DNA from: Pseudomonadota bacterium
GTDB taxonomy: Bacteria; Pseudomonadota; Alphaproteobacteria; Rhodobacterales; Rhodobacteraceae
Assembly (NCBI GenBank): GCA_038530925.1
Contig: JBCBCG010000109.1
Coordinates: 1 to 14,544, forward strand
Length of the DNA stretch: 14,544 bases
Direction of reading: 5' to 3'
The notes under the pieces are model-generated. The model was not told the DNA's origin and searched no databases. It worked only from the letters and a program-made list of their open reading frames with translations. Position numbers and translations under genes: made by a program. Positions 2,593 through 14,210 of this stretch are shown piece by piece (positions within the stretch are counted from its first letter, which is position 1; each line of letters opens with the position of its first letter).

Positions 2593-3603
2593 TTAACCGC
2601 GGCGGTTGAGAAATGCGGCGACCGCGCGGGCGGCGGCGACTTCCGCGGTCACCGCGCCCGCCTCCACCGCCGCCGCGGCCTCCGCAAACGCCGCCGCCGC
2701 CGCGGTATCGCGGTCGAACGCCTCGAGGAGACCGCGTTCCAGCGCATAGCGCAGCCATTTCGCCGATTGCGCGCGCCGGCGCGCCTCCCGCCATCCTTCT
2801 TCCGCGCGCCAGGCGTCGATGGCCTGCATCCGCTCCCACGCCGCCTCAAGCCCCGCGCCGGTGGCGGCGGAAACCGCCATCGCCGACGGGCAGGCTTCCG
2901 GATCGCCCGGACGCTTGCGCAAAAGCCGAAGAGCGCCGGCGTAATCGGAGGTGGTCGCCTGAGCCTGGGCTGTGAGATCGCCGTCGGCTTTGTTCACCAA
3001 GATCAGATCGGCCAGCTCCATGACGCCGCGCTTGACGCCTTGAAGCTCGTCCCCGCCCGCCGGCGCCAGGAGCAGCACGAAGAGATCGGTCATATCCGCG
3101 ACCATCGTCTCGGACTGGCCGACGCCCACCGTCTCGACCAGAACGGCGTCGAACCCCGCCGCCTCCGCCAACAGGATCGCCTCGCGCGTGCGCCGCGCCA
3201 CGCCGCCCAGCGCGGCGCCCGCCGGCGAAGGGCGGATATAGGCGTTCGGATCGCGCGCCAGGCGCTCCATCCGGGTTTTGTCGCCCAGGATCGAACCGCC
3301 CGTCCGCGCCGAGCTTGGATCCACCGCCAGCACCGCGACCTTGCGGCCCTTCGCTGTCAGCATGCCGCCGAAGCGCTCGATGAAGCTTGATTTGCCCACG
3401 CCCGGCGCGCCGGTCAGCCCGATCCGCAGCGCGCCGCCCGTAACCGGCGCGACCCGCTCCAGCAGCGCTTCGGTGGCGGCGCGGTGATCATCGCGCTGCG
3501 ATTCCGCAAGCGTGATCGCCTGGGAGAGCGCCCGGCGCTCGCCGCGCCGGAGCCTTGCGGCGAGCGTCGCGGCCGCCAGCGCCGGATCGAAAGGCCGCAT
3601 CAC
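2593..3603 (-). CDS. meaB: Methylmalonyl-CoA mutase-associated GTPase MeaB (ArgK / LAO-AO transport ATPase family G-protein chaperone)
   Basis: The translation contains the P-loop [15 protein letters not shown], the DxxG motif and NKADG (G4), plus the characteristic MeaB/ArgK core ([10 protein letters not shown]...[12 protein letters not shown]). The first codon is GTG at 3603 followed by ATG at 3600, so either is a possible start. Confidence 0.88.
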
Positions 3604-3777
3604 GCCGCTCCTTTGAACGCGGCCTGCGCTCGGCCGCAGCGGCGCGGCGCCGAGCTTCCGAGCCCTCCGCGCCGCATTCGCGCCCCGTTTGGCCCCGATC
3701 GCTGCGTCAATCGCATCATCCGCGCGCGGCCCGCTCCCGTCTCCCGCGCCGCGGCGCCTGCTAGGAGATCTCGGCCC

Positions 3778-4575
3778 ATGCTGTTTCGCGCTCTCTCGCC
3801 TTGCAAACCGTCCTCATCGCTCCGCGCCGGCGCGCTGATCGCCGCGCTTTTCGCCGCCGTCCCGCTCGCCGCCGCCGCCAACGCCGCGCCGGAGCGCCCA
3901 GCGGAGGTCAAACACCGCTACAAGGCTTATGTCGGCGGCGTGCTGATCGGCAAAGCCTCTCTGACGACGCGCTTCACCGCGGAGGGCTATAGCAGCGAAG
4001 GCAAGCTCGAGACCGACGGCGTCGCCGGCTGGTTCGTCGCCGCCAAAGCCCAAGCCTCCGCGCTCGGCGCGCTCGACGCCTCGGCGCTTGAGCCCGAGCG
4101 CCTGGATGTGACCGCCGACAGCGATGGCGAAGCCTGGCGCATGAGCATCGCCTTCAGCGGCGGCGCGCCCTCGGAGGTGTCGGCCGAGCCGCCGCTGCGA
4201 AGCCGCAAATGGGACATCGATCCCGCTTCGCAAACCGGCGCGCTCGACCCGATCAGCGCCATCGTCCGCGCCATGACCGGCCCGATGACGAGCGCGAGCG
4301 CCGCCGCGCCCTGCGAGCGCACATTGCCGGTTTTCGATGGCCGCAAACGCTACGACATCGTGCTGGAGGAGCAGATCGACGAGCGCGTGAAGGACGGCGT
4401 CACCATCATCGAATGCGCCGCGCGCTGGACGCGGGTCTCCGGCTTCAAGCCGAAGATGATGCGCAAGCCCGACTATCCCTTCACCGCGCGGTTCGCGATC
4501 CGCGACGGGTTGACCGTGCCGGTGCGCATCTGGGGCGACACGGAGTTCGGCGGCGCTGTGGTGGTTCTCCGCTGA
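3778..4575 (+). CDS. Secreted DUF3108-family protein (signal peptide plus DUF3108-like domain)
   Basis: An AGGAG Shine-Dalgarno sequence lies 8 nt upstream of the ATG at 3778. The N-terminus [36 protein letters not shown] is a typical Sec signal peptide. The body ([14 protein letters not shown]...TDGVAGWF...) resembles DUF3108. The six-frame ORF beginning at 3484 is an Arg-rich upstream extension that overlaps the divergent meaB start and is unlikely to be translated. Confidence 0.65.
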
Positions 4576-4814: not shown

Positions 4815-4889
4815 GTGGGTTTAGCTCAGCGGTAGAGCACTCGGCTGCGGGCCGAGCGGACGGGGGTTCGAGTCCCTTAACCTACTCCA
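4815..4889 (+). tRNA. tRNA with an Arg(ACG)-like body but an atypical anticodon loop CUGCGGG (apparent anticodon GCG). The 3' CCA is encoded.
   Basis: Manual cloverleaf: acceptor 4815-4821 pairs with 4879-4885 (two G-U pairs). D-arm is GCUC/AGCGGUAGA/GAGC. Anticodon stem CUCGG (4840-4844) pairs with CCGAG (4852-4856). The variable loop is 5 nt. T-arm is GGGGG/UUCGAGU/CCCUU. Discriminator U4886 is followed by CCA 4887-4889. The anticodon arm and variable region are near-identical to bacterial tRNA-Arg(ACG) (ACUCGG CUACGAA CCGAG CGG.C), but positions 34, 37 and 38 are all G. Confidence 0.7.
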
Positions 4890-7001: not shown

Positions 7002-8432
7002 TCAGGCGGCGCCCAGCGCCGCCTGATAGAATGCGCCGAACGACCGGATCTCCTTGATCGCGGCCTCCAAGGCGCGCCAATCATCCTGCTCGGCGATGGG
7101 CGCCCAAACACCCTCGACGCGATCGATCAACATGGTGGTCGGCTCCAGCCGCCGCGCATATGTCGAGCTGAGCGCGGCCGCTGCGCCTGGGAGAGCCGGC
7201 GCCGCGCGCAAGGCGGCGATCGCCTCCGCCCAAACCGGCGCCTCGTAGGTCTCAGCGATCGGGCTCGCGACGATGCGCCCGACCTTCGCCCCGCCCATCA
7301 AATCGAAGAACACGCGCTCGAAAGGCGGCTTGGTCTCACGCATCGCGGTGTAGAACAGCGTGTTGCGCTCCATCGCCGCCGCCTCATCCTCCGCGCTCAG
7401 CAGCAAGCGCCGATGCGTCGCCAGCGCCGTCTCCCGCACCGCGCGCGCGAAAAACGTCTCGAGGCTCGCTTGCAAAGGCTTCAGCGTCGTGAAGGGCAGC
7501 AGGCACTCCGCCAGGCGCGCCAAATTCCACCCGAGCGCGTCGAGCTGGCGCCCATAAGCATACAGACCGGTCTCGTCGAAATAGGCCGCGGTGAAGCCCG
7601 GCTCGAACAGCGGCAAAAAGCGCCACGGCCCGTAATCGAAGCTCTCGCCAGTGATGACGATGTTGTCGGTGTTGAGGACGCCGTGCACGAACCCTGCGGC
7701 GGTCCATTCCGCGCCGAGCCGCGCCACCGCGCCGACAACGCTGTCATAGAGCGCGACGACAGGATCCGGCGCCGCGGCCGCGTCAGGATAATAGATCTCG
7801 ATCGCGTAATCGATCAGGCGGCGCAGCGCCTCGGTCTCTTCATGCGCGGCCAGGCGCTGGAAAAGGCCGATGCGCAAATGGCTGTAGGAGAGACGCGTCA
7901 ACACGGCCGAGCGCGTGGGCGAGGGCTCGTCATTGCGCTCCAGCGCCTCGCCCGTCTCGATCAAGCTGAAGCTGCGCGAGGTCGAGACGCCCAGCGCTTC
8001 AAGAAGCTCGGTCGCCAAAACCTCGCGCACGCCGCCTTTCAGCGTCAGGCGCCCATCGCCGGAGCGCGACCAGGGCGTTCGGCCCGAGCCCTTCGTCGAG
8101 AAGTCGAGCAGCCGATCCGTGCCGGCCTCGCGCATCTGCGCGTAAAGAAAGCCGCGGCCGTCGCCGAGGTCGGGATTGTAATGGCGGAACTGGTGGCCGT
8201 GATAGCGCAGCGCCAGCGGCTTCGGGATGTTGTCGGGCAACGGCTCGAACCGCGCGAAATGGGCGATCCACTCGGCGTCGGTCAAACCATCCAGACCGAT
8301 CGTCGCCGCAGCGCGGTCGTTCCGGAAGCGAATCGCGCTCTCGGGAAACCGGGCGGCGTCGACAACGTCGAAAAACGCCGGCCCAAGGCTCGGATGGCGC
8401 GGATCGGGGCGGTAGGCGGATGAAACGGGCAT
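7002..8432 (-). CDS. selO: Protein adenylyltransferase SelO (YdiU/UPF0061 family)
   Basis: From the ATG at 8432-8430 the translation MPVSSAYRPDP...LALRYHGHQFRHYNPDLGDGRGFLYAQM...GVLNTDNIVITGESFDYGPWRFL... contains the hallmark SelO motifs. The length of 477 aa matches the family. The 793-aa six-frame ORF is an Arg/His-rich upstream extension that runs through the divergent echA gene and is rejected. Confidence 0.9.
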   Translation of the reverse strand: MPVSSAYRPDPRHPSLGPAFFDVVDAARFPESAIRFRNDRAAATIGLDGLTDAEWIAHFARFEPLPDNIPKPLALRYHGHQFRHYNPDLGDGRGFLYAQMREAGTDRLLDFSTKGSGRTPWSRSGDGRLTLKGGVREVLATELLEALGVSTSRSFSLIETGEALERNDEPSPTRSAVLTRLSYSHLRIGLFQRLAAHEETEALRRLIDYAIEIYYPDAAAAPDPVVALYDSVVGAVARLGAEWTAAGFVHGVLNTDNIVITGESFDYGPWRFLPLFEPGFTAAYFDETGLYAYGRQLDALGWNLARLAECLLPFTTLKPLQASLETFFARAVRETALATHRRLLLSAEDEAAAMERNTLFYTAMRETKPPFERVFFDLMGGAKVGRIVASPIAETYEAPVWAEAIAALRAAPALPGAAAALSSTYARRLEPTTMLIDRVEGVWAPIAEQDDWRALEAAIKEIRSFGAFYQAALGAA

Positions 8433-8702
8433 GCCGCGTGAGGTCGGCGCCGGCGCTGGAAAGTCAACCGGTCGCAGCGCGCATTTGCGCCGCCCCGCCC
8501 GCCGGATCACGACCATCGACCGAGACGCTCGCCTGTCGATCACAGGCGGCCAAGCGCTCGCTCCCCGCGAGACTGTCGAACGGCCCGCCGCGAGGCGTGA
8601 TGCGATCAGCGCTTCGCTTTGGCTGCGCTTTGGCGCAAAATCACTAAGCAGCGCCCGAGCGGCGCTTTCATTCGCATCAAGACGATCGCTGGGAGAGCTG
8701 GA

Positions 8703-9518
8703 ATGGACGGAGACGCCGCGCTGTCGGAGACGCCGCTGCTGATGGAGACGAATGGCGGCGTCGCGACGCTGACGCTGAACCGGCCCAAAGCGATCAACGC
8801 GCTGTCCGAAGAGATGCTGGCGGCGCTGCAAGGCGCGCTTGATGAGATCGCCGCGGATCGCTCGGTCAAAGCGGTGATCCTGCGCGGCGCCGGCGCGCAT
8901 TTCTGCGCCGGACATAATCTCAAAGAGATGACCGCGCGGCGCGCGGATGAAGATGGCGGTCGCGCCTATTTCGAGGCGCTGTTCGCGACTTGCGCCACGA
9001 TGATGAAGACGGTGGTGCGCCTGCCGCAGCCCGTGATCGCCGAGGTCTCGGGCATCGCCACCGCCGCGGGCTGCCAGCTCGTCGCGGCCTGCGATCTCGC
9101 CGTCGCCGGGCGGAGCGCGCGCTTCGCCACCTCCGGCGTCAATATCGGCCTTTTCTGCGCGACGCCGATGGTGGCGCTCAGCCGCAATGTGGCGCGCAAG
9201 CAAGCAATGGAGATGCTGCTGCTCGGCGATTTCGTCCCCGCCGCCCGCGCTGCGGAGATCGGGCTCGTGAACCGCGTCGTTCCCGATGATCAGCTCGAGG
9301 CCGAGACCCGCGCCATGGCCGAGGCGATCGCGAGCAAATCGCCGGTCGCGCTCAAGATCGGCAAGGAGGCCTTCTACGCCCAAGCCGAGATGACGCTCGA
9401 TGAGGCCTACGCCTACGCCGGCCGCGCGATGGCGGAGAACATGATGGCCCGCGACGCCAAAGCCGGCATCGGCGCTTTCATCGAGAAGAAGCCGACGCCT
9501 GACTGGACGGGAGAGTGA
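8703..9518 (+). CDS. Enoyl-CoA hydratase/isomerase (crotonase superfamily) protein
   Basis: Crotonase-fold motifs are present (LTLNRPKAINALS, ILRGAGAHFCAGHNLKEM, oxyanion hole GIATAAGCQL, C-terminal AFIEKKP). The ATG at 8703 is preceded by GGGAGAG. The 28 upstream residues in the track ORF lie in the divergent promoter region. Confidence 0.85.
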   Translation: MDGDAALSETPLLMETNGGVATLTLNRPKAINALSEEMLAALQGALDEIAADRSVKAVILRGAGAHFCAGHNLKEMTARRADEDGGRAYFEALFATCATMMKTVVRLPQPVIAEVSGIATAAGCQLVAACDLAVAGRSARFATSGVNIGLFCATPMVALSRNVARKQAMEMLLLGDFVPAARAAEIGLVNRVVPDDQLEAETRAMAEAIASKSPVALKIGKEAFYAQAEMTLDEAYAYAGRAMAENMMARDAKAGIGAFIEKKPTPDWTGE

Positions 9519-9617
9519 GGCGCGCGGCGAAGCTGCAATAATAAGCCCGCTGCAAGATTAAGGGTATTTCCCGCCTCCCTTCCCAAGTTAAAACTCAAGG
9601 CGAGCGAGAGAAATGAA

Positions 9618-10379
9618 ATGAGAGCTTGGATAATTGCGATCGTTGGTGCGCTTGCGGCAGTTGTAGGAATCGTGGCCGGCACCCTAGACCTTCGCGATCG
9701 CTTTTTTGGTGAAGCGCCGCCTGCGGCCGGATTAAATAACACACAATTTGATGAGTTTATATTACTTGAGCCTGAGGAGTTTGACATATACGCCAACAAA
9801 ACAAAAGACGATCTTTTCATATTTCATGGGAAATTTTTGGAATATGAAGAAATGAATGCCCTGGAGTATGACTATATCTCAAAAGAACTTCGAGTAATTT
9901 TTAAAAACGGCGATGTGGGCATTCTTGACCTCCGAGTCTCTTGCGCAGTAGAGCCATATATTCAGGAGGCGGCCGCAGTGAAAATAGTGAGGACGGAAAA
10001 TCGAGAGCCCGTTGACGGAACCACCTTACCCGTTGAGCAGGTGTACCCGCGATCAAAAATCAGAAAGCCAGCACGTGACAGACAAGGTTACTTTGGCGCA
10101 ACTGTAAGAGATTTCCAGATTGGAGACCCGAAAGACTTTGCACAGAATCTTGGCTTTCCTGGAGCCGTGATTGTAGAACTCACTAAAGGCGGACCCGCAG
10201 CGCTTCATGGTTTCCAGGCTGGAGACCGAATTATAAAGTTCGATGACCGAATACTAAAAGATAGGAAAGAGTTTGTGGAGTGCATAAAGCATTCGCCACC
10301 TGAGGTTGAGTTTGGGTTTTTTGTCATTCGAGGCAATGAAAAAAAATTGATAAAAGCCAAACTTGGATCTGTGAAATAA
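9618..10379 (+). CDS. Membrane-anchored PDZ-domain protein of 253 aa (N-terminal TM helix, ~140-aa unknown domain, C-terminal PDZ). Encoded in a low-GC insert.
   Basis: The N-terminus MRAWIIAIVGALAAVVGIVAG is a single TM/signal-anchor. The C-terminus (GYFGATVRDFQIGDPKDFAQNLGFPGAVIVELTKGGPAALHGFQAGDRIIKFDDRIL...EVEFGFFVIRGNEKKLIKAKLG) fits a PDZ fold with the GLGF-like carboxylate-binding loop (NLGFPG). Codon usage is AT-rich, with many AAA, AAT, GAT and TTT codons, quite unlike the flanking genes. Confidence 0.75.
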   Translation: MRAWIIAIVGALAAVVGIVAGTLDLRDRFFGEAPPAAGLNNTQFDEFILLEPEEFDIYANKTKDDLFIFHGKFLEYEEMNALEYDYISKELRVIFKNGDVGILDLRVSCAVEPYIQEAAAVKIVRTENREPVDGTTLPVEQVYPRSKIRKPARDRQGYFGATVRDFQIGDPKDFAQNLGFPGAVIVELTKGGPAALHGFQAGDRIIKFDDRILKDRKEFVECIKHSPPEVEFGFFVIRGNEKKLIKAKLGSVK

Positions 10380-10425
10380 CGCCAAAATCTAAGAACCTCG
10401 AAATTATTATTCAAATCGGGTTTAC

Positions 10426-11412
10426 TCACTTCTCGGCTACGAAAAGCCCTACAAGATTTGAGGGCGTCACGCCGAGATGGCGCTTATAGGCGCGGCGCAT
10501 GGTTTCTTCGGAGCGGAAGCCGAAGCGGGCGGCGGCGGCCTTAAGGGTGATCTTTTGATCCAGCAACGCGTCGCGCGACGCTTCAACGCGGACGCGCTCA
10601 ACGTAACGCGCCGGCGTCTTTCCCGTTTCGGCTTTGAAGAGCCGCGCGAAATTTCGCTCCGACATATGCGCGCGCGCGGCCATGGTCGGCACGGTGTACG
10701 CGCCGCCTGGATCCTCATGAAGGGCGGCGATCAGCGCGTCGAAACGACCTTTCGCGCTTTCGACTTGTTGGCGAAGACCAGCGCTGAATTGGCTCTGACC
10801 GCCGCGGCGCTTGATCGGCAACACCAGCAGACGCGCAATGCGCAGCGCCTCCTTGCGACCGAGATCCCGCTCCACCAAAGCAAGCGCCAGATCGACGCCC
10901 GATGAAACTCCCGCGGAGGTCCAAACGTCGCCGTGCTCGATGAAGATCTCGTCCGCCTGAACGTCGATGTCCGGATACTCGCGCGCGAGCCTCGCGCATT
11001 CCACCCAATGCGTCGTCGCGCGCTTGCCGGACAAAAGACCAGCCTCCGCCAGGATGAACGCGCCGAGGCACACCGAGCAGAGGCGTCGCCCGGCGCGAGC
11101 CCCTCTTTTCAGCACCGCTGAAAGCTCCATCGAACGGCGCGCCGCGAAGGCGCCGCGCCCGCCGGCGACGATCAGCGTCTGCGCCCGCGCCGCGCCGCGG
11201 AGCTCTGCCGCCGACAACGCCACGATCGTATCCGTCGCCACCGTCCCAGCCCGCTCCGCGTGGAGGCTGAGGCGGTAGGCCGCGGATCCGTCTTGGCGGC
11301 GCGCATCTGAAAAGACCTGAAGCGGTCCCGCGACGTCGAGCAGCTTCACATCGTCATAGACGATCAAAGCGACTGTCAGAGGCGAAGGCGCTTTGGCGGA
11401 ATTTGCTGGCAT
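10426..11412 (-). CDS. GlxA-family transcriptional regulator (DJ-1/PfpI-like N-terminal domain plus AraC-type HTH)
   Basis: The N-terminal domain (VALIVYDDVKLLDVAGPLQVF...CSVCLGAFILAEAGLLSGKRATTHW) has the conserved Cys of DJ-1/PfpI. The C-terminal part (MSERNFARLFKAETGKTPARYVERVRVEASRDALLD...RFGFRSEETMRRAYKRHLGVTPS) is an AraC HTH. Confidence 0.85.
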   Translation of the reverse strand: MPANSAKAPSPLTVALIVYDDVKLLDVAGPLQVFSDARRQDGSAAYRLSLHAERAGTVATDTIVALSAAELRGAARAQTLIVAGGRGAFAARRSMELSAVLKRGARAGRRLCSVCLGAFILAEAGLLSGKRATTHWVECARLAREYPDIDVQADEIFIEHGDVWTSAGVSSGVDLALALVERDLGRKEALRIARLLVLPIKRRGGQSQFSAGLRQQVESAKGRFDALIAALHEDPGGAYTVPTMAARAHMSERNFARLFKAETGKTPARYVERVRVEASRDALLDQKITLKAAAARFGFRSEETMRRAYKRHLGVTPSNLVGLFVAEK

Positions 11413-11495
11413 CGTGTCATTCTGCCAAAGCCCCTTCCTCGCTACAATCTCTTCGTCGAAACCGAGGGCGGGCGCCCACGAACAGGAGCGAAGAG

Positions 11496-11666
11496 ATGAC
11501 GAAACCCCTTAAACTGGCGGATTGCGTGAACAAAACCTGCCCTTGGTCGGGCGAGCCGGTCTCGGCCGATGCGCTGACGCTTCACCAGGGCAAGGTGGTC
11601 GGCTTCTGCAACCCAGGTTGCCGAGACAAATTCGAGAAAGCGATCAAGCACTTTGAAGCGAGCTGA
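11496..11666 (+). CDS. Small YHS/TRASH-like Cys4 metal-binding protein of 56 aa
   Basis: MTKPLKLADCVNKTCPWSGEPVSADALTLHQGKVVGFCNPGCRDKFEKAIKHFEAS has C-x4-C...GK.VGFC.PGC..KF, which matches the YHS-domain pattern (...Y.GK.YYFCS.GC...F). An AGGAG Shine-Dalgarno sequence lies 6 nt upstream of the ATG at 11496. The longer track ORF from 11403 has no Shine-Dalgarno sequence. Confidence 0.55.
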   Translation: MTKPLKLADCVNKTCPWSGEPVSADALTLHQGKVVGFCNPGCRDKFEKAIKHFEAS

Positions 11667-11780
11667 ACACGCTTCGCCAAAGCCGCGCTCAGCCGCTGCG
11701 GCGCAAGAGCGCGATCACCATGCGATACGATCGGCCGCCGATGTCTGCGATGGTCCGCCGCTGCGATCGGACTGGGCGCG

Positions 11781-12626
11781 TCATTTGTAGATCAGCACCG
11801 GGATCGCGCTTTCGCGGATGACTTCTGAGGTCGTGCCGCCGATGACGAGCGTCCGTAGGCGCGAGCGGCCATAGGCGCCCATCACCAGCAGATCCGCCGC
11901 CTCTTGCTCCGCCGCCGCCGGAATCGCCGTTTTCGCGGGACCGGGTAGGATTTTCACCTGCGGCGCCAATCCCGCCGCGCTCAGCTGCGCCGCAGCCTGA
12001 TCGAGGGATCGCCGCGCCCGCTCATCCGGGTCGCCCGCCATCGCGATGACGCAGTCAAGCTGATGAAACAGCGCCGACCGCGAGACCGCCTCGACCGACG
12101 CGAGCGCGCCGGCGCGGCCGTCGAAGGCGATCATGAAGCGCCGGATCTCGCTAAAGGCCCGCGCAGCGACCAGAACCGGCCGGCTCGCCCCGCGCAGGAT
12201 CCGCTCGAGGTTCGAGCCGAGATGGAGTTTGGCGAAATCCGCCGCTTGCCCGCGTTTGCCGACGACGATCAGCTCCGCCTGCTCTTCGCGCGAGGCCAGC
12301 GTCTCCAACAAATCGCCATGCCTAAGCGTCGTCGTCGCCTCAACGCCGGCCGCCGCGACGATCGCCGCCATTTCTTCGAGGTCGAGCCGGGCCTGCTTCA
12401 TCAAGAGTTTGCTGCGTTGCGCGTCGAGGGCCACGAGCTCCTCCAGCAGCTGGCGACGGGCGCCGGCCACCAAGCGCCCCGACCGGTTGTCCGCCGCCTG
12501 CTCGCGCCGCCCGAGCACTTGCATGAGCTCGACCGAGGCGGACAACCGGTCGGCCGACCACGCCGCGTGAGAGGCCACGCTCTGCGAGAAGATCGAGCCG
12601 TCGATCGCGGCCAGAACAGTTGTCAT
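11781..12626 (-). CDS. Universal stress protein with tandem UspA domains
   Basis: There are two USP repeats (MTTVLAAIDGS...ELIVVGKRG...; FMIAFDGRAG...LLVMGAYGRSRLRTLVIGGTTSEVIRESAIPVLIY) with the ATP-binding G-x2-G-x9-G(S/T) motif in the second. It lies in the same orientation as, and downstream of, the SulP gene. Confidence 0.85.
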   Translation of the reverse strand: MTTVLAAIDGSIFSQSVASHAAWSADRLSASVELMQVLGRREQAADNRSGRLVAGARRQLLEELVALDAQRSKLLMKQARLDLEEMAAIVAAAGVEATTTLRHGDLLETLASREEQAELIVVGKRGQAADFAKLHLGSNLERILRGASRPVLVAARAFSEIRRFMIAFDGRAGALASVEAVSRSALFHQLDCVIAMAGDPDERARRSLDQAAAQLSAAGLAPQVKILPGPAKTAIPAAAEQEAADLLVMGAYGRSRLRTLVIGGTTSEVIRESAIPVLIYK

Positions 12627-12716
12627 GCATGCATCTTCCCGTGTGGACGCGACAGGCGCCGCGACGACCGGCTCGCCGAATGGCTCCACTGTCGCGCGGG
12701 GCTGCGCCCGGTCAAG

Positions 12717-14210
12717 TCAGTGCGCCATCAGCTTGTCGTCGAGCGCGCCAGGTTTGTCGTAGACCGCCAATTCGTCGACGATGGTCTCGCTGGCTTGGTT
12801 CAGGCCGATCACCTCGACATCCGCGCCATCGCGCCGAAACTTCATCACCACCGTATCCAGCGCGCCCACGCTCGATATGTCCCAGATATGCGCGCGGTTA
12901 AGATCGATCACAACGTGATCCAAGGCTTCGCGGAAATCAAAGGACGCCAGGAACGCGTCAGCGGAGGCGTAGAACAACTGCCCCTCGACGACATAAGTCC
13001 GCCGTCGCCCGTCATCCGAAAGAGACGAGCTCACCCGGAAGATCTGCGCGATCTTCGCCGCGAAGAAGATCCCCGACAGCAAGACGCCGATCAGCACGCC
13101 GATGGCGAGGTTGTGGGTGGCGACCACGCCGATCACGGTCGCCACCATGACGATGCTGGAGCTGGTTGGGTGCTCTCGCAACTTGCGCAAGGACGACCAG
13201 CTGAAGGTGCCGATCGACACCATGATCATGACGGCGACCAAGGCCGCCATAGGGATCAGGCTGACCCAATCGCCCAGGAACACGACCATGATCAGCAAGA
13301 AGAAGCCGGCGCAAAAGGTCGACAGACGCCCACGTCCGCCCGATTGCACATTGATGATCGACTGCCCGATCATCGCGCAGCCGGCCATGCCGCCGATAAA
13401 GCCGGTGGCGATGTTGGCGACGCCCTGGCCGACGCACTCTTGATTGCGGTCGCTATCGGTATCGGTGAGCTCGTCGACGATCGACGCCGTCATCAGCGAT
13501 TCGAGCAGGCCCACCGACGCGACGCCGACAGAGTAGGGCAGGATGATCAGCAAGGTCTCAAACGTCAGCGGGATGTCGGGCAGCAAGAACACGGGCAGCG
13601 TCGAGGGCAGCTCGCCCATATCGCCCACCGTTCGCAGATCCCAGTCGAAGACGAGCGCCAACGCGGTGATCACAACGATGCAGACCAGCGGCGCCGGCAC
13701 AGCCTTGGTGACGAGCGGCAGCAGATAGAGGACGCCCAAGCCGAACGCGACCAAGGCGTAGGTGAGCGGCGGCACGCCGATCAGCTCCGGGATTTGCGCC
13801 ATGAAGATGAGGATCGCGAGCGCGTTCACGAAGCCCGTCAGCACGGAGCGCGAGACGTAACGCATGACGCGGCCGAGTTTCAGATAGCCGGCGCCGACCT
13901 GCAGCACGCCCGCAAGAACGGTCGCGGCGAGAAGGTATTGCAGGCCATGCTCCTTCACGAGCGTGACCATCAGCACCGCCGTCGCCGCCGTCGCGGCGGA
14001 GATCATGCCAGGCCGGCCGCCCACGAAGGCGATGATGACCGCGATCGAGAACGACGCGTAGAGCCCGACTTTCGGGTCCACACCAGCGATTATGGAGAAT
14101 GCGATCGCTTCAGGGATCAGCGCCAGCGCCACCACCAGGCCGGCCACCATGTCCGCGCGCGCGTTGCCGAACCACTCTGTCCGCCACCGCTCCCAGGTTT
14201 TCGATTCCAA
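12717..14210 (-). CDS. SulP-family inorganic anion (sulfate/bicarbonate) transporter with a C-terminal STAS domain
   Basis: The sequence has multiple TM helices and SulP signature regions ([49 protein letters not shown]), followed by a STAS domain ([21 protein letters not shown]...[27 protein letters not shown]). The longest ORF begins with TTG at 14210. An internal ATG (Met21, about 14150) is an alternative start. Confidence 0.85.

What the first reader, a model, noticed from the sequence alone, without database searches (positions are those of the whole stretch)
9520..10425. Low-GC insert of about 0.9 kb carrying a single orphan membrane-anchored PDZ protein, wedged between two convergent native genes
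Base composition drops sharply inside this segment. By eye, lines here run at roughly 30-50% GC against about 65-70% elsewhere. The single ORF (9618-10379) uses AT-rich codons foreign to this genome. The boundaries coincide almost exactly with the stop codons of the enoyl-CoA hydratase gene (9518) and the GlxA regulator gene (10426), so this is a compact, recent horizontal insertion at a convergent-terminator junction. The protein architecture is TM anchor, uncharacterised ~140-aa domain (EFDIYANKTKDDLFIFHGKFLEYEEMNALEYDYISKELRVIFKNGDVGILDLRV...) and C-terminal PDZ. That is not one of the standard PDZ families (HtrA, RseP, Prc or CtpA), because no protease domain is attached. A solitary acquired membrane PDZ module could act as an adaptor or sensor, or as a fragment of a mobile or defence function. 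The middle domain looks undescribed.
Basis: partly seen in the sequence, partly recalled or inferred. Interest (0 to 1): 0.7.

Follow-up and report, generated by a model that had tools for sequence, protein, structure and literature searches.

The report
Foreign islet: membrane PDZ protein, new domain
A 0.9-kb stretch of foreign, AT-rich DNA in a GC-rich bacterial chromosome carries one intact gene for a membrane-anchored protein that joins an HtrA-type PDZ domain to a previously undescribed ~95-residue beta domain; the same domain turns up in rare environmental relatives fused to TIR immune domains or on prophage and plasmid DNA, but what it does is still unknown.

Summary
Window 9520-10425 has 45% GC against 67% (sd 2.6%) elsewhere, z = -8.3. 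The single ORF (9618-10379) has GC3 of 0.41, against 0.73-0.86 in neighbouring genes. An independent Logan assembly reproduces the ORF and its junction with the GlxA-type gene at 100% identity.

The protein is not a true orphan. A full-length homolog (34% identity) sits in its own 45%-GC islet beside a truncated prophage terminase. Another lies between ArdA and a relaxase. Six relatives fuse the domain to TIR, one to a T4SS coupling ATPase, and most are small standalone proteins in a conserved operon of ~47% GC genomes.

The best reading is a recently acquired accessory gene of the mobile gene pool that encodes a non-catalytic, probably periplasm-facing binding protein. Its role at the envelope (exclusion or adaptor) is inferred, not shown. 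No close relative of the host exists in public data, so the empty-site test could not be run.

The parts
9520..10425 (.). Low-GC islet (45.3% GC in a 67% GC contig)
   Evidence: z = -8.3 against all other 906-bp windows. It is the only such dip in the contig.
9519..9617 (+). Left spacer between the ECH stop and the ORF start. GC is 0.525. It holds a purine-rich GAGAG about 8 nt before the ATG (a possible ribosome-binding site, read from the sequence) and a tandem imperfect 14-nt repeat at 9532-9562. The independent Logan contig ends at 9589.
   Evidence: (repeat D6). The RNA fold is not unusual (z -0.95).
9618..10379 (+). Single intact ORF of 253 aa (NCBI name: 'PDZ domain-containing protein'). 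GC1/2/3 = 0.59/0.35/0.41.
   Evidence: The full-length AlphaFold2 model has pLDDT 85.5.
9627..9707 (+). N-terminal transmembrane anchor (aa 4-30)
   Evidence: Hydropathy 2.61 over aa 5-23. Helix 4-30 in the model.
9708..9752 (+). Low-confidence linker (aa 31-45, Pro/Ala/Gly-rich)
   Evidence: pLDDT 52-53 in this stretch.
9753..10040 (+). Undescribed beta domain (aa 46-141) with motifs DIYxNK, IFHGK, LEYD, KNGD, SCAVEPY and IVRTxNREPVDG. It contains Cys109.
10083..10373 (+). HtrA/DegP-type PDZ domain (aa 156-252). The carboxylate-binding loop G-Y-F-G-A lies at aa 157-161. It contains Cys222.
   Evidence: PF13180, E 1.5e-9. DegP-like PDZ1, E 3e-12. Foldseek rmsd 1.7-3.9 A to DegS, HtrA, DegQ and MucD PDZs. 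Loop columns.
10380..10425 (.). Right spacer of 46 bp (GC 0.348) up to the stop codon of the convergent GlxA-type gene
   Evidence: No terminator-like hairpin. The junction is reproduced in the Logan contig.
8703..9518 (+). Native flank: enoyl-CoA hydratase (GC 0.676, GC3 0.857)
   Evidence: NCBI MEL6979349.1.
10426..11412 (-). Native flank: DJ-1/PfpI + AraC (GlxA-type) regulator (GC 0.653, GC3 0.745)
   Evidence: NCBI MEL6979351.1.

Best explanation
A GC-rich (67%) alphaproteobacterium-like chromosome has recently picked up a 0.9-kb piece of foreign DNA (45% GC) between two convergent housekeeping genes. The piece carries one intact gene. Its product is a non-catalytic, two-module binding protein held at the inner membrane by an N-terminal helix. 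One module is a previously undescribed ~95-residue all-beta domain. The other is an HtrA/DegS-type PDZ with an intact peptide-carboxylate-binding loop. The layout copies DegS (anchor, globular domain, PDZ), but an unrelated beta domain replaces the protease. The gene belongs to a rare, environmental gene pool that moves on mobile elements. Its closest homolog forms its own 45%-GC islet beside a prophage remnant. Another lies on a relaxase/ArdA element. The beta domain is also fused to defence-type TIR domains and to a T4SS coupling ATPase. Shown: the foreign composition, the intact gene, the domain layout, the type of PDZ, the novelty of the beta domain, and the fusions and contexts of relatives. 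Inferred: that the globular part faces the periplasm and is stapled by a Cys109-Cys222 disulfide, and that the protein acts as an envelope adaptor. In that model the PDZ captures a C-terminal peptide of a host or invader envelope protein while the beta domain supplies a second recognition or oligomerisation surface, most likely for exclusion of, or defence against, incoming mobile elements. I put about 0.3 on this last functional step alone; the confidence given here is for the statement as a whole, and the structural and evolutionary description alone would rate about 0.8.
Against: No empty site or closer relative is available, so 'recent insertion' rests on composition alone. No mobility signature exists at the boundaries: no integrase, adjacent tRNA, target-site duplication, terminal inverted repeat or attC. 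The family is absent from 50,697 phage records, 72,556 plasmid records and IMG/VR, so the mobile-element link rests on three contexts of distant relatives. Two other fused relatives (P0004, P0005) sit in unremarkable neighbourhoods. Most family members are standalone chromosomal genes in a conserved operon next to lepA, which does not look like conflict biology. TIR and T4CP fusions must be cytoplasmic, so the domain is not intrinsically periplasmic. The topology call for the window protein itself is weak (1 against 2 K/R). No PADLOC model matches the protein. No ligand or partner is identified.
Confidence: 0.55

Rival explanations
1. The gene is a cytoplasmic sensor or adaptor of an abortive-infection-type system. 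The beta domain is the same invader-sensing or oligomerising module that regulates the TIR NADase in the fused relatives. Here it is tethered to the inner face of the membrane (N-out, C-in), and the PDZ recruits a partner.
For: Six family members are TIR_2 + domain fusions whose TIR parts match defence TIR models. One of them lies in an integrase/TIR/caspase island. The T4CP fusion also places the domain in the cytoplasm. The charge bias around the window protein's single TM helix is weak.
Against: P0002 and P0030 have K/R-rich loops between their TM helices that put the C-terminal part outside, and P0016 has a signal-peptide-like start. The fusion-specific Cys pair suggests an oxidising compartment. 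HtrA-type PDZs are typically periplasmic (established knowledge). No effector gene accompanies the ORF in the window, and PADLOC finds nothing.
Confidence: 0.15
2. The gene is a native, long-resident gene whose AT-richness is maintained for other reasons, such as regulation by a xenogeneic silencer or amino-acid composition. On this view it is not a recent insertion.
For: No empty site could be found. There are no mobility genes or repeats at the boundaries. The boundaries coincide with gene ends, as for any ordinary intergenic gene.
Against: GC3 is 0.41 against 0.73-0.86 in neighbours, and both spacers are GC-poor, so amino-acid usage cannot explain the dip. Homologs keep about 45% GC in hosts of 48% and 63% GC. 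The closest homolog is only 34% identical and lies in an unrelated context. No ECH ortholog locus carries such a gene.
Confidence: 0.08
3. The gene is a truncated or degraded HtrA-family (S1C) or S41 protease that kept its anchor and PDZ. The middle domain would then be a decayed protease barrel.
For: The layout of anchor, globular domain and HtrA-type PDZ is that of DegS. The PDZ is most similar to DegP/DegS PDZs. Some Foldseek alignments to HtrA proteases extend to 170-280 columns.
Confidence: 0.03
4. The finding is an assembly or binning artefact: the low-GC piece belongs to another organism and was joined in by the assembler.
For: The source is a MAG contig. The independent Logan contig stops at 9589, inside the left spacer. 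The PDZ protein itself is recorded from NCBI only.
Against: The Logan contig spans the whole ORF, the right junction and 3 kb of GC-rich host DNA at 100% identity. An internal 0.9-kb chimeric insert would need two false joins. The ORF is recorded only from NCBI because it is cut by the end of the Logan contig.
Confidence: 0.04

Closest known systems
DegS / HtrA-family (MEROPS S1C) membrane-anchored periplasmic PDZ proteases
   Same: Both have an N-terminal membrane anchor followed by a globular domain and a C-terminal PDZ. The PDZ is of the same sequence and structural type, including a Phi-G-Phi carboxylate-binding loop (GYFGA).
   Different: No trypsin-like protease domain and no catalytic triad are present. 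The position of the protease is taken by an unrelated ~95-aa beta domain with no detectable structural relative. The protein can therefore bind but not cleave.
Phage 'morons' and prophage- or plasmid-encoded membrane exclusion proteins (e.g. T4 Imm/Sp, P22 SieA, plasmid entry-exclusion proteins; from general knowledge)
   Same: Both are a single, compact, compositionally foreign gene for a small membrane-anchored protein. In the closest homolog the gene lies on the opposite strand next to prophage structural genes, and in another relative it lies on a relaxase/ArdA element.
   Different: There is no sequence or fold similarity to any known exclusion protein. No exclusion phenotype has been tested. 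The window has no prophage or plasmid genes at all, and no PDZ-based exclusion protein turned up in the literature search.
Bacterial defence TIR proteins with C-terminal sensor domains (ThsB-like, TIR-SAVED, pAgo-associated TIR)
   Same: Six relatives carry the same beta domain directly after a TIR_2 domain that matches these defence TIR models. This suggests the domain can act as a regulatory or sensing partner of an effector.
   Different: The window protein has no TIR or other effector. The beta domain is not SAVED, PNTD or any domain in PADLOC.
Tudor / SH3-like barrels (Pfam LBR_tudor PF09465)
   Same: Three of 24 family members match LBR_tudor over about 32 residues around the conserved 'KDG' hairpin (best E 2.4e-7).

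Membership tests
PDZ domain (Pfam PF13180 PDZ_2 / HtrA-type PDZ) | Profile match above the curated threshold | tested here: met
   PF13180 scores 38.4 bits against a cut-off of 27 (E 1.5e-9, aa 177-249). PF17820 scores 27.7 against 27.
PDZ domain (Pfam PF13180 PDZ_2 / HtrA-type PDZ) | PDZ fold superposable on solved HtrA-family PDZs | tested here: met
   Foldseek gives rmsd 1.7-3.9 A over about 100 columns to DegS (4rqy), H. pylori HtrA (7xs0), DegQ (3pv2) and MucD (8k2y), probability 1.00.
PDZ domain (Pfam PF13180 PDZ_2 / HtrA-type PDZ) | Carboxylate-binding Phi-G-Phi loop present | tested here: met
   G157-Y-F-G-A161 aligns with GYLGV (P0002), RIGV (P0030) and GWLGV of DegP-like PDZ1. Actual peptide binding was not tested.
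HtrA/DegP/DegS serine proteases (S1C) | Trypsin-like protease domain with a His-Asp-Ser triad N-terminal to the PDZ | tested here: not met
S41 C-terminal processing peptidases (Prc/CtpA) and M50 RseP | Peptidase_S41 or M50 catalytic domain | tested here: not met
   No such Pfam hit. RseP models match only the PDZ (aa 183-229), far below their cut-offs.
Horizontally acquired genomic islet | Base composition and codon usage deviating from the host | tested here: met
   GC 0.453 against 0.671 (z -8.3). GC3 0.41 against 0.73-0.86.
Horizontally acquired genomic islet | Absence from the same locus in close relatives (empty site) | not testable with these tools
   ECH and GlxA are singletons at 90% identity among 15 billion proteins. 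The best ECH loci (<= 76%) and GlxA loci (<= 50%) share no synteny.
Horizontally acquired genomic islet | Mobility signatures (integrase or transposase, flanking tRNA, direct or inverted repeats, attC) | tested here: not met
   There are no such genes in the contig. The nearest tRNA is 4.6 kb away. Only chance-level repeats are present. There is no attC-like core pair.
Known anti-phage defence systems (PADLOC-DB 2.0) | Match to any defence-system protein model | tested here: not met
   There are 0 families for the window protein and for P0002, P0008, P0030 and P0105. Only the TIR or T4CP parts of fused relatives match.
Phage protein families (PHROGs v4) | Match over the beta domain | tested here: not met
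   Only the PDZ part matches phrog_11383 (unknown function, E 8e-5). The standalone domain protein gives no hit.
Tudor / SH3-like barrel (PF09465 LBR_tudor) | Profile or structural match of the domain core | tested here: inconclusive

The most novel reading that the evidence does not exclude
The ~95-residue beta domain is a new fold. It serves as a recognition or oligomerisation module of prokaryotic conflict systems: it gates TIR NADases in the cytoplasm and, when disulfide-stapled to an HtrA-type PDZ on the outer face of the inner membrane, forms a single-gene, protease-less 'DegS mimic'. Mobile elements would carry this as a minimal cargo islet to block incoming phage or conjugative DNA, or to hijack envelope-stress signalling.
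Probability: 0.2. Interest if true: 0.7.

Novelty: new variant of a known kind. Interest (0 to 1): 0.5.

Why it matters
Single-gene foreign islets are ordinary, and a PDZ protein is not surprising in itself. What is new is the partner domain. It is compact, confidently modelled and well conserved, and it has no entry in Pfam, NCBIfam, PHROGs, PADLOC or the PDB and no structural neighbour. Yet it is combined with three kinds of modules: TIR immune domains, a T4SS coupling ATPase and an HtrA-type PDZ. That makes it a concrete candidate for a new domain family, and a small, tractable target for structure determination and for phage or conjugation challenge assays. If the exclusion or adaptor reading holds, it would be the first PDZ-based, non-proteolytic envelope factor carried by mobile elements. 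If it does not hold, the result is still a clean definition of a new domain of unknown function and of its distribution.

Tried and rejected
1. Empty-site test. ECH was searched against 185,579 GTDB species genomes. The 80 loci kept were <= 76% identical, and none had GlxA or SelO next to ECH. GlxA against JGI metagenomes gave <= 50% identity. Cluster look-ups showed both flanking proteins are singletons. The test is impossible with the data at hand.

2. Degraded protease. Rejected.

4. Tudor lead. The LBR_tudor match is real for 3 of 24 relatives but not for the window protein, and it is not significant against solved Tudor chains. Left as inconclusive.

5. Direct phage or plasmid membership. 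tblastn of the protein and of a consensus domain against INPHARED phages and PLSDB plasmids gave no match.

6. Shared cassette boundaries. blastn between the window islet and the P0002 islet gave only chance matches.

7. Insertion signatures. Direct and inverted repeats were at chance level. There is no attC, no terminator, and the spacer RNA folds are unremarkable.

8. Last word-indexed search. The search with the full-length alignment A1 was swamped by TIR and PDZ candidates and returned only two proteins.

9. Giant neighbour of the standalone family. The 1450-1950-aa protein has no Pfam or PDB match and gave no functional lead.

10. Literature. No paper describes a PDZ-based exclusion or defence protein or this domain.

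Full report
OBSERVATION. The composition drop is real and unique in the contig. In 200-nt windows, GC falls from 0.62-0.74 to 0.37-0.52 between about 9600 and 10500. No other part of the 14.5-kb window behaves this way. The segment 9520-10425 has GC 0.453, against 0.671 +/- 0.026 (minimum 0.616) for all equal-size windows elsewhere, z = -8.3. It holds one long ORF, 9618-10379 on the plus strand, 253 aa. The ORF's third-position GC is 0.41, against 0.73-0.86 in nine neighbouring genes. Both short spacers are GC-poor as well (0.525 and 0.348).

An enoyl-CoA hydratase ends at 9518, and a DJ-1/PfpI + AraC (GlxA-type) regulator on the minus strand ends at 10426. The rest of the window is ordinary chromosome: SIR2, MeaB, DUF3108, tRNA-Arg, SelO, Usp and a SulP permease. 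It has no integrase, transposase or phage gene.

The window is the whole of an NCBI MAG contig ('Pseudomonadota bacterium'), and the ORF is annotated there as 'PDZ domain-containing protein'. An independent Logan assembly of run SRR22824326 reproduces window 9589-13395 at 100% identity. That span covers the entire ORF, the 46-bp spacer, the GlxA-type gene and 2 kb beyond, so the right junction is not an assembly artefact. The Logan contig stops inside the left spacer, so the left junction is supported by the MAG assembly only.

THE PROTEIN. A full-length AlphaFold2 model (pLDDT 85.5) shows a TM helix (aa 4-30), a low-confidence Pro/Ala-rich linker (31-45), an all-beta domain (46-141), a short linker and a PDZ (156-252).

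The PDZ passes Pfam's threshold (PF13180, 38.4 against 27 bits). By sequence it is closest to PDZ1 of DegP-like proteases (E 3e-12, aa 146-252 only). It superposes on the PDZs of DegS, HtrA, DegQ and MucD at 1.7-3.9 A over about 100 columns. Its first strand carries G-Y-F-G-A. This aligns with the Phi-G-Phi carboxylate-binding loop of HtrA-type PDZs (the role of that loop is established knowledge for DegS and DegP). The module therefore looks competent to bind C-terminal peptides.

THE MIDDLE DOMAIN IS A NEW FAMILY, NOT AN ORPHAN. At 90% clustering the protein is a singleton among 5.8 billion clusters. An exhaustive phmmer scan of 1.84 billion representatives tells a different story. It found a full-length homolog, P0002 (273 aa, 34% identity, E 3e-42), and about 20 further representatives that match only aa 46-142.

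Their alignment (A2) shows a compact, well-conserved module. The consensus is roughly LFxPDExDIYxNKxTxExxIFHGKxIDY..LEY..VxVVxKDG..LDLGVxIQWLVRPY...IVRTxNGExxDGxxVPL. A profile search added 53 more proteins, all 106-175 aa, all without any Pfam domain and without informative names.

The domain has no match in any library searched:
- Pfam
- NCBIfam
- PHROGs
- PADLOC
- PDB sequences, even at E <= 10
- BFVD structures

One lead remains. Three of 24 members hit Pfam LBR_tudor around the 'KDG' hairpin (best E 2.4e-7). The window protein does not, and the match to solved Tudor chains is not significant (E 0.5). I leave this as inconclusive.

ARCHITECTURES AND CONTEXTS OF RELATIVES.

(i) Standalone proteins. 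In four of four long contigs examined, the gene follows a giant protein (1450-1950 aa) with no Pfam or PDB match. It is followed by a divergent paralog of itself (E 1e-9 to 1e-12 against my profile) and a small ORF, next to lepA, in genomes of 0.465-0.49 GC. This is a conserved chromosomal operon of one lineage. Two family members come from MAGs named Micavibrio and Bdellovibrionales.

(ii) TIR_2 + domain. There are six representatives (P0005, P0014, P0020, P0057, P0061, P0108). Their TIR parts match pAgo-associated TIR, SAVED-TIR and ThsB models. P0014 lies in an island with a phage-type integrase, a second TIR protein and a caspase-like peptidase. P0005 sits in an unremarkable neighbourhood.

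(iii) T4SS coupling ATPase. P0004 is a VirD4/TraG-like ATPase with two C-terminal copies of the domain. Its neighbourhood is not obviously mobile.

(iv) Membrane anchor + domain + PDZ, the window's own layout. The members are P0002, P0030 and P0016. P0002 is seen in two samples that are one locus (99.7% identity). Its gene has 0.446 GC and sits, with a 97-aa gene, in a ~1.4-kb low-GC islet inside 0.62-0.64 GC DNA. That islet directly abuts the last 144 aa of a terminase large subunit, an HNH endonuclease and an HK97-type capsid gene, and lies on the opposite strand. P0030 (gene GC 0.462) lies between ArdA, Fic and resolvase on one side and a relaxase on the other.

The window's subfamily therefore keeps about 45% GC whatever the host, and it appears in or beside mobile DNA in two of the three other cases. 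The family is nevertheless absent from the phage, plasmid and IMG/VR collections. The mobile-element link is suggestive rather than statistical.

TOPOLOGY AND THE CYSTEINE PAIR. By hydropathy and the positive-inside rule, the C-terminal part of P0002 and P0030 lies outside the cytoplasm. P0016 starts with a signal-peptide-like segment. The window protein is weakly N-in/C-out.

The window protein has exactly two cysteines, C109 in the beta domain and C222 in the PDZ. Both are conserved in P0002 and P0030. Both are replaced together in P0016. In every PDZ-less family member, C109 is replaced by Trp (Ser in one). None of the 14 HtrA-type PDZs aligned has a Cys at the position of C222. In P0001 and P0002 the neighbouring invariant Arg of the WLVRPY motif is reversed to Glu.

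A disulfide would fit a periplasmic location and a rigid two-domain unit. The TIR and T4CP fusions show that the domain also works in the cytoplasm.

HOW IT MOST LIKELY WORKS. What is shown: foreign composition, an intact gene, a confident fold, a HtrA-type PDZ with a binding loop, a new beta domain, and relatives on or beside mobile elements or fused to immune effectors.

What is inferred is the following. The gene is cargo from a ~45% GC mobile gene pool that landed between two convergent genes. Its product sits in the inner membrane with the beta domain and PDZ in the periplasm. This layout copies DegS but has no protease. It would act by binding: the PDZ captures a C-terminal peptide, and the beta domain gives a second recognition or oligomerisation surface.

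The most plausible biological role for such a single mobile gene is exclusion of, or defence against, incoming elements, or modulation of envelope-stress signalling. I put about 0.3 on that functional step. I put about 0.8 on the structural and evolutionary description, and 0.55 on the explanation as a whole.

RIVALS. Four alternatives were considered:
- A cytoplasmic sensor or adaptor role, as in the TIR fusions (0.15).
- An old resident gene with odd composition (0.08). This is contradicted by GC3 and the GC-poor spacers, but it is not excluded for lack of relatives.
- An assembly artefact (0.04). This is contradicted by the Logan contig, at least for the right junction.
- A degraded protease (0.03).

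NOVELTY AND INTEREST. The islet itself is ordinary. The HtrA-type PDZ is known. The beta domain is a genuinely undescribed family with no structural neighbour and informative fusions. I rate the finding a new variant of a known kind (a protease-less, DegS-like PDZ protein built on a new domain, carried as a foreign islet), with interest 0.5. It is a solid lead for a new domain family and a testable candidate for an envelope-level conflict function, but no function has been demonstrated.

Noticed in passing
L131 1-7272; L132 1376-7013; L133 1258-7053; L141 2545-8046: There is a conserved operon in ~47-49% GC genomes. It consists of a giant protein (1450-1950 aa) with no Pfam or PDB match, the standalone beta-domain protein, a divergent paralog of it (121-125 aa), and a 50-103-aa ORF. 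It always lies next to lepA, SIMPL and DUF3137 genes. This looks like the family's 'home' context and is itself entirely uncharacterised.
   Followed up: partly
L138 920-4984 (protein P0004): P0004 is a 1354-aa VirD4/TraG-type coupling-protein ATPase. It also matches PADLOC 'mad8' at E 1e-10. It carries two tandem copies of the beta domain at its C-terminus (aa 1100-1204 and 1246-1346). Its neighbourhood has no other conjugation genes.
   Followed up: partly
L139 2920-14085: A TIR + beta-domain protein sits in an island with a phage-type integrase, an HTH_3 regulator, a second TIR_2 protein and a caspase-like Peptidase_C14. The adjacent AMP-binding and ECH genes are called as several short fragments, so they may be pseudogenes or carry frameshifts.
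   Followed up: no
L135 2139-3950 (= L134 1563-3370): The low-GC islet carrying P0002 and a 97-aa coiled-coil/TM gene directly abuts a terminase large-subunit gene of which only the last 144 aa (nuclease domain) remain. The islet appears to have replaced the 5' part of terL in a prophage remnant.
   Followed up: partly
window 4385-4484 (-): ARAGORN calls a 100-nt tRNA-Ser(tga) inside the DUF3108 ORF (3484-4575). Rfam at gathering threshold finds only the tRNA-Arg at 4815-4886, so the tRNA-Ser call is probably a false positive.
   Followed up: no
window 11403-11666 (+): An 87-aa Cys-rich ORF (...CPWSGEPV...GFCNPGCRDKFEK...) is divergently oriented from the GlxA-type regulator. It has no Pfam match, and its exact sequence is not in the protein collection, so it is not called with this start in the public annotation.
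   Followed up: no
window 9532-9562 and 9589: A tandem imperfect 14-nt repeat (GCTGCAATAATAAG / GCTGCAAGATTAAG) lies in the left spacer just after the ECH stop. The independent Logan contig ends 27 nt further on, at 9589. This could reflect a graph branch, and so possible population heterogeneity at the left junction, or simply low coverage.
   Followed up: no
window 7002-9383 (-): A 793-aa minus-strand ORF runs from the SelO gene through the antisense strand of the ECH gene. Only its C-terminal ~480 aa (SelO) look real. This kind of long antisense ORF is a typical artefact of 67% GC DNA and should not be read as a gene.
   Followed up: no
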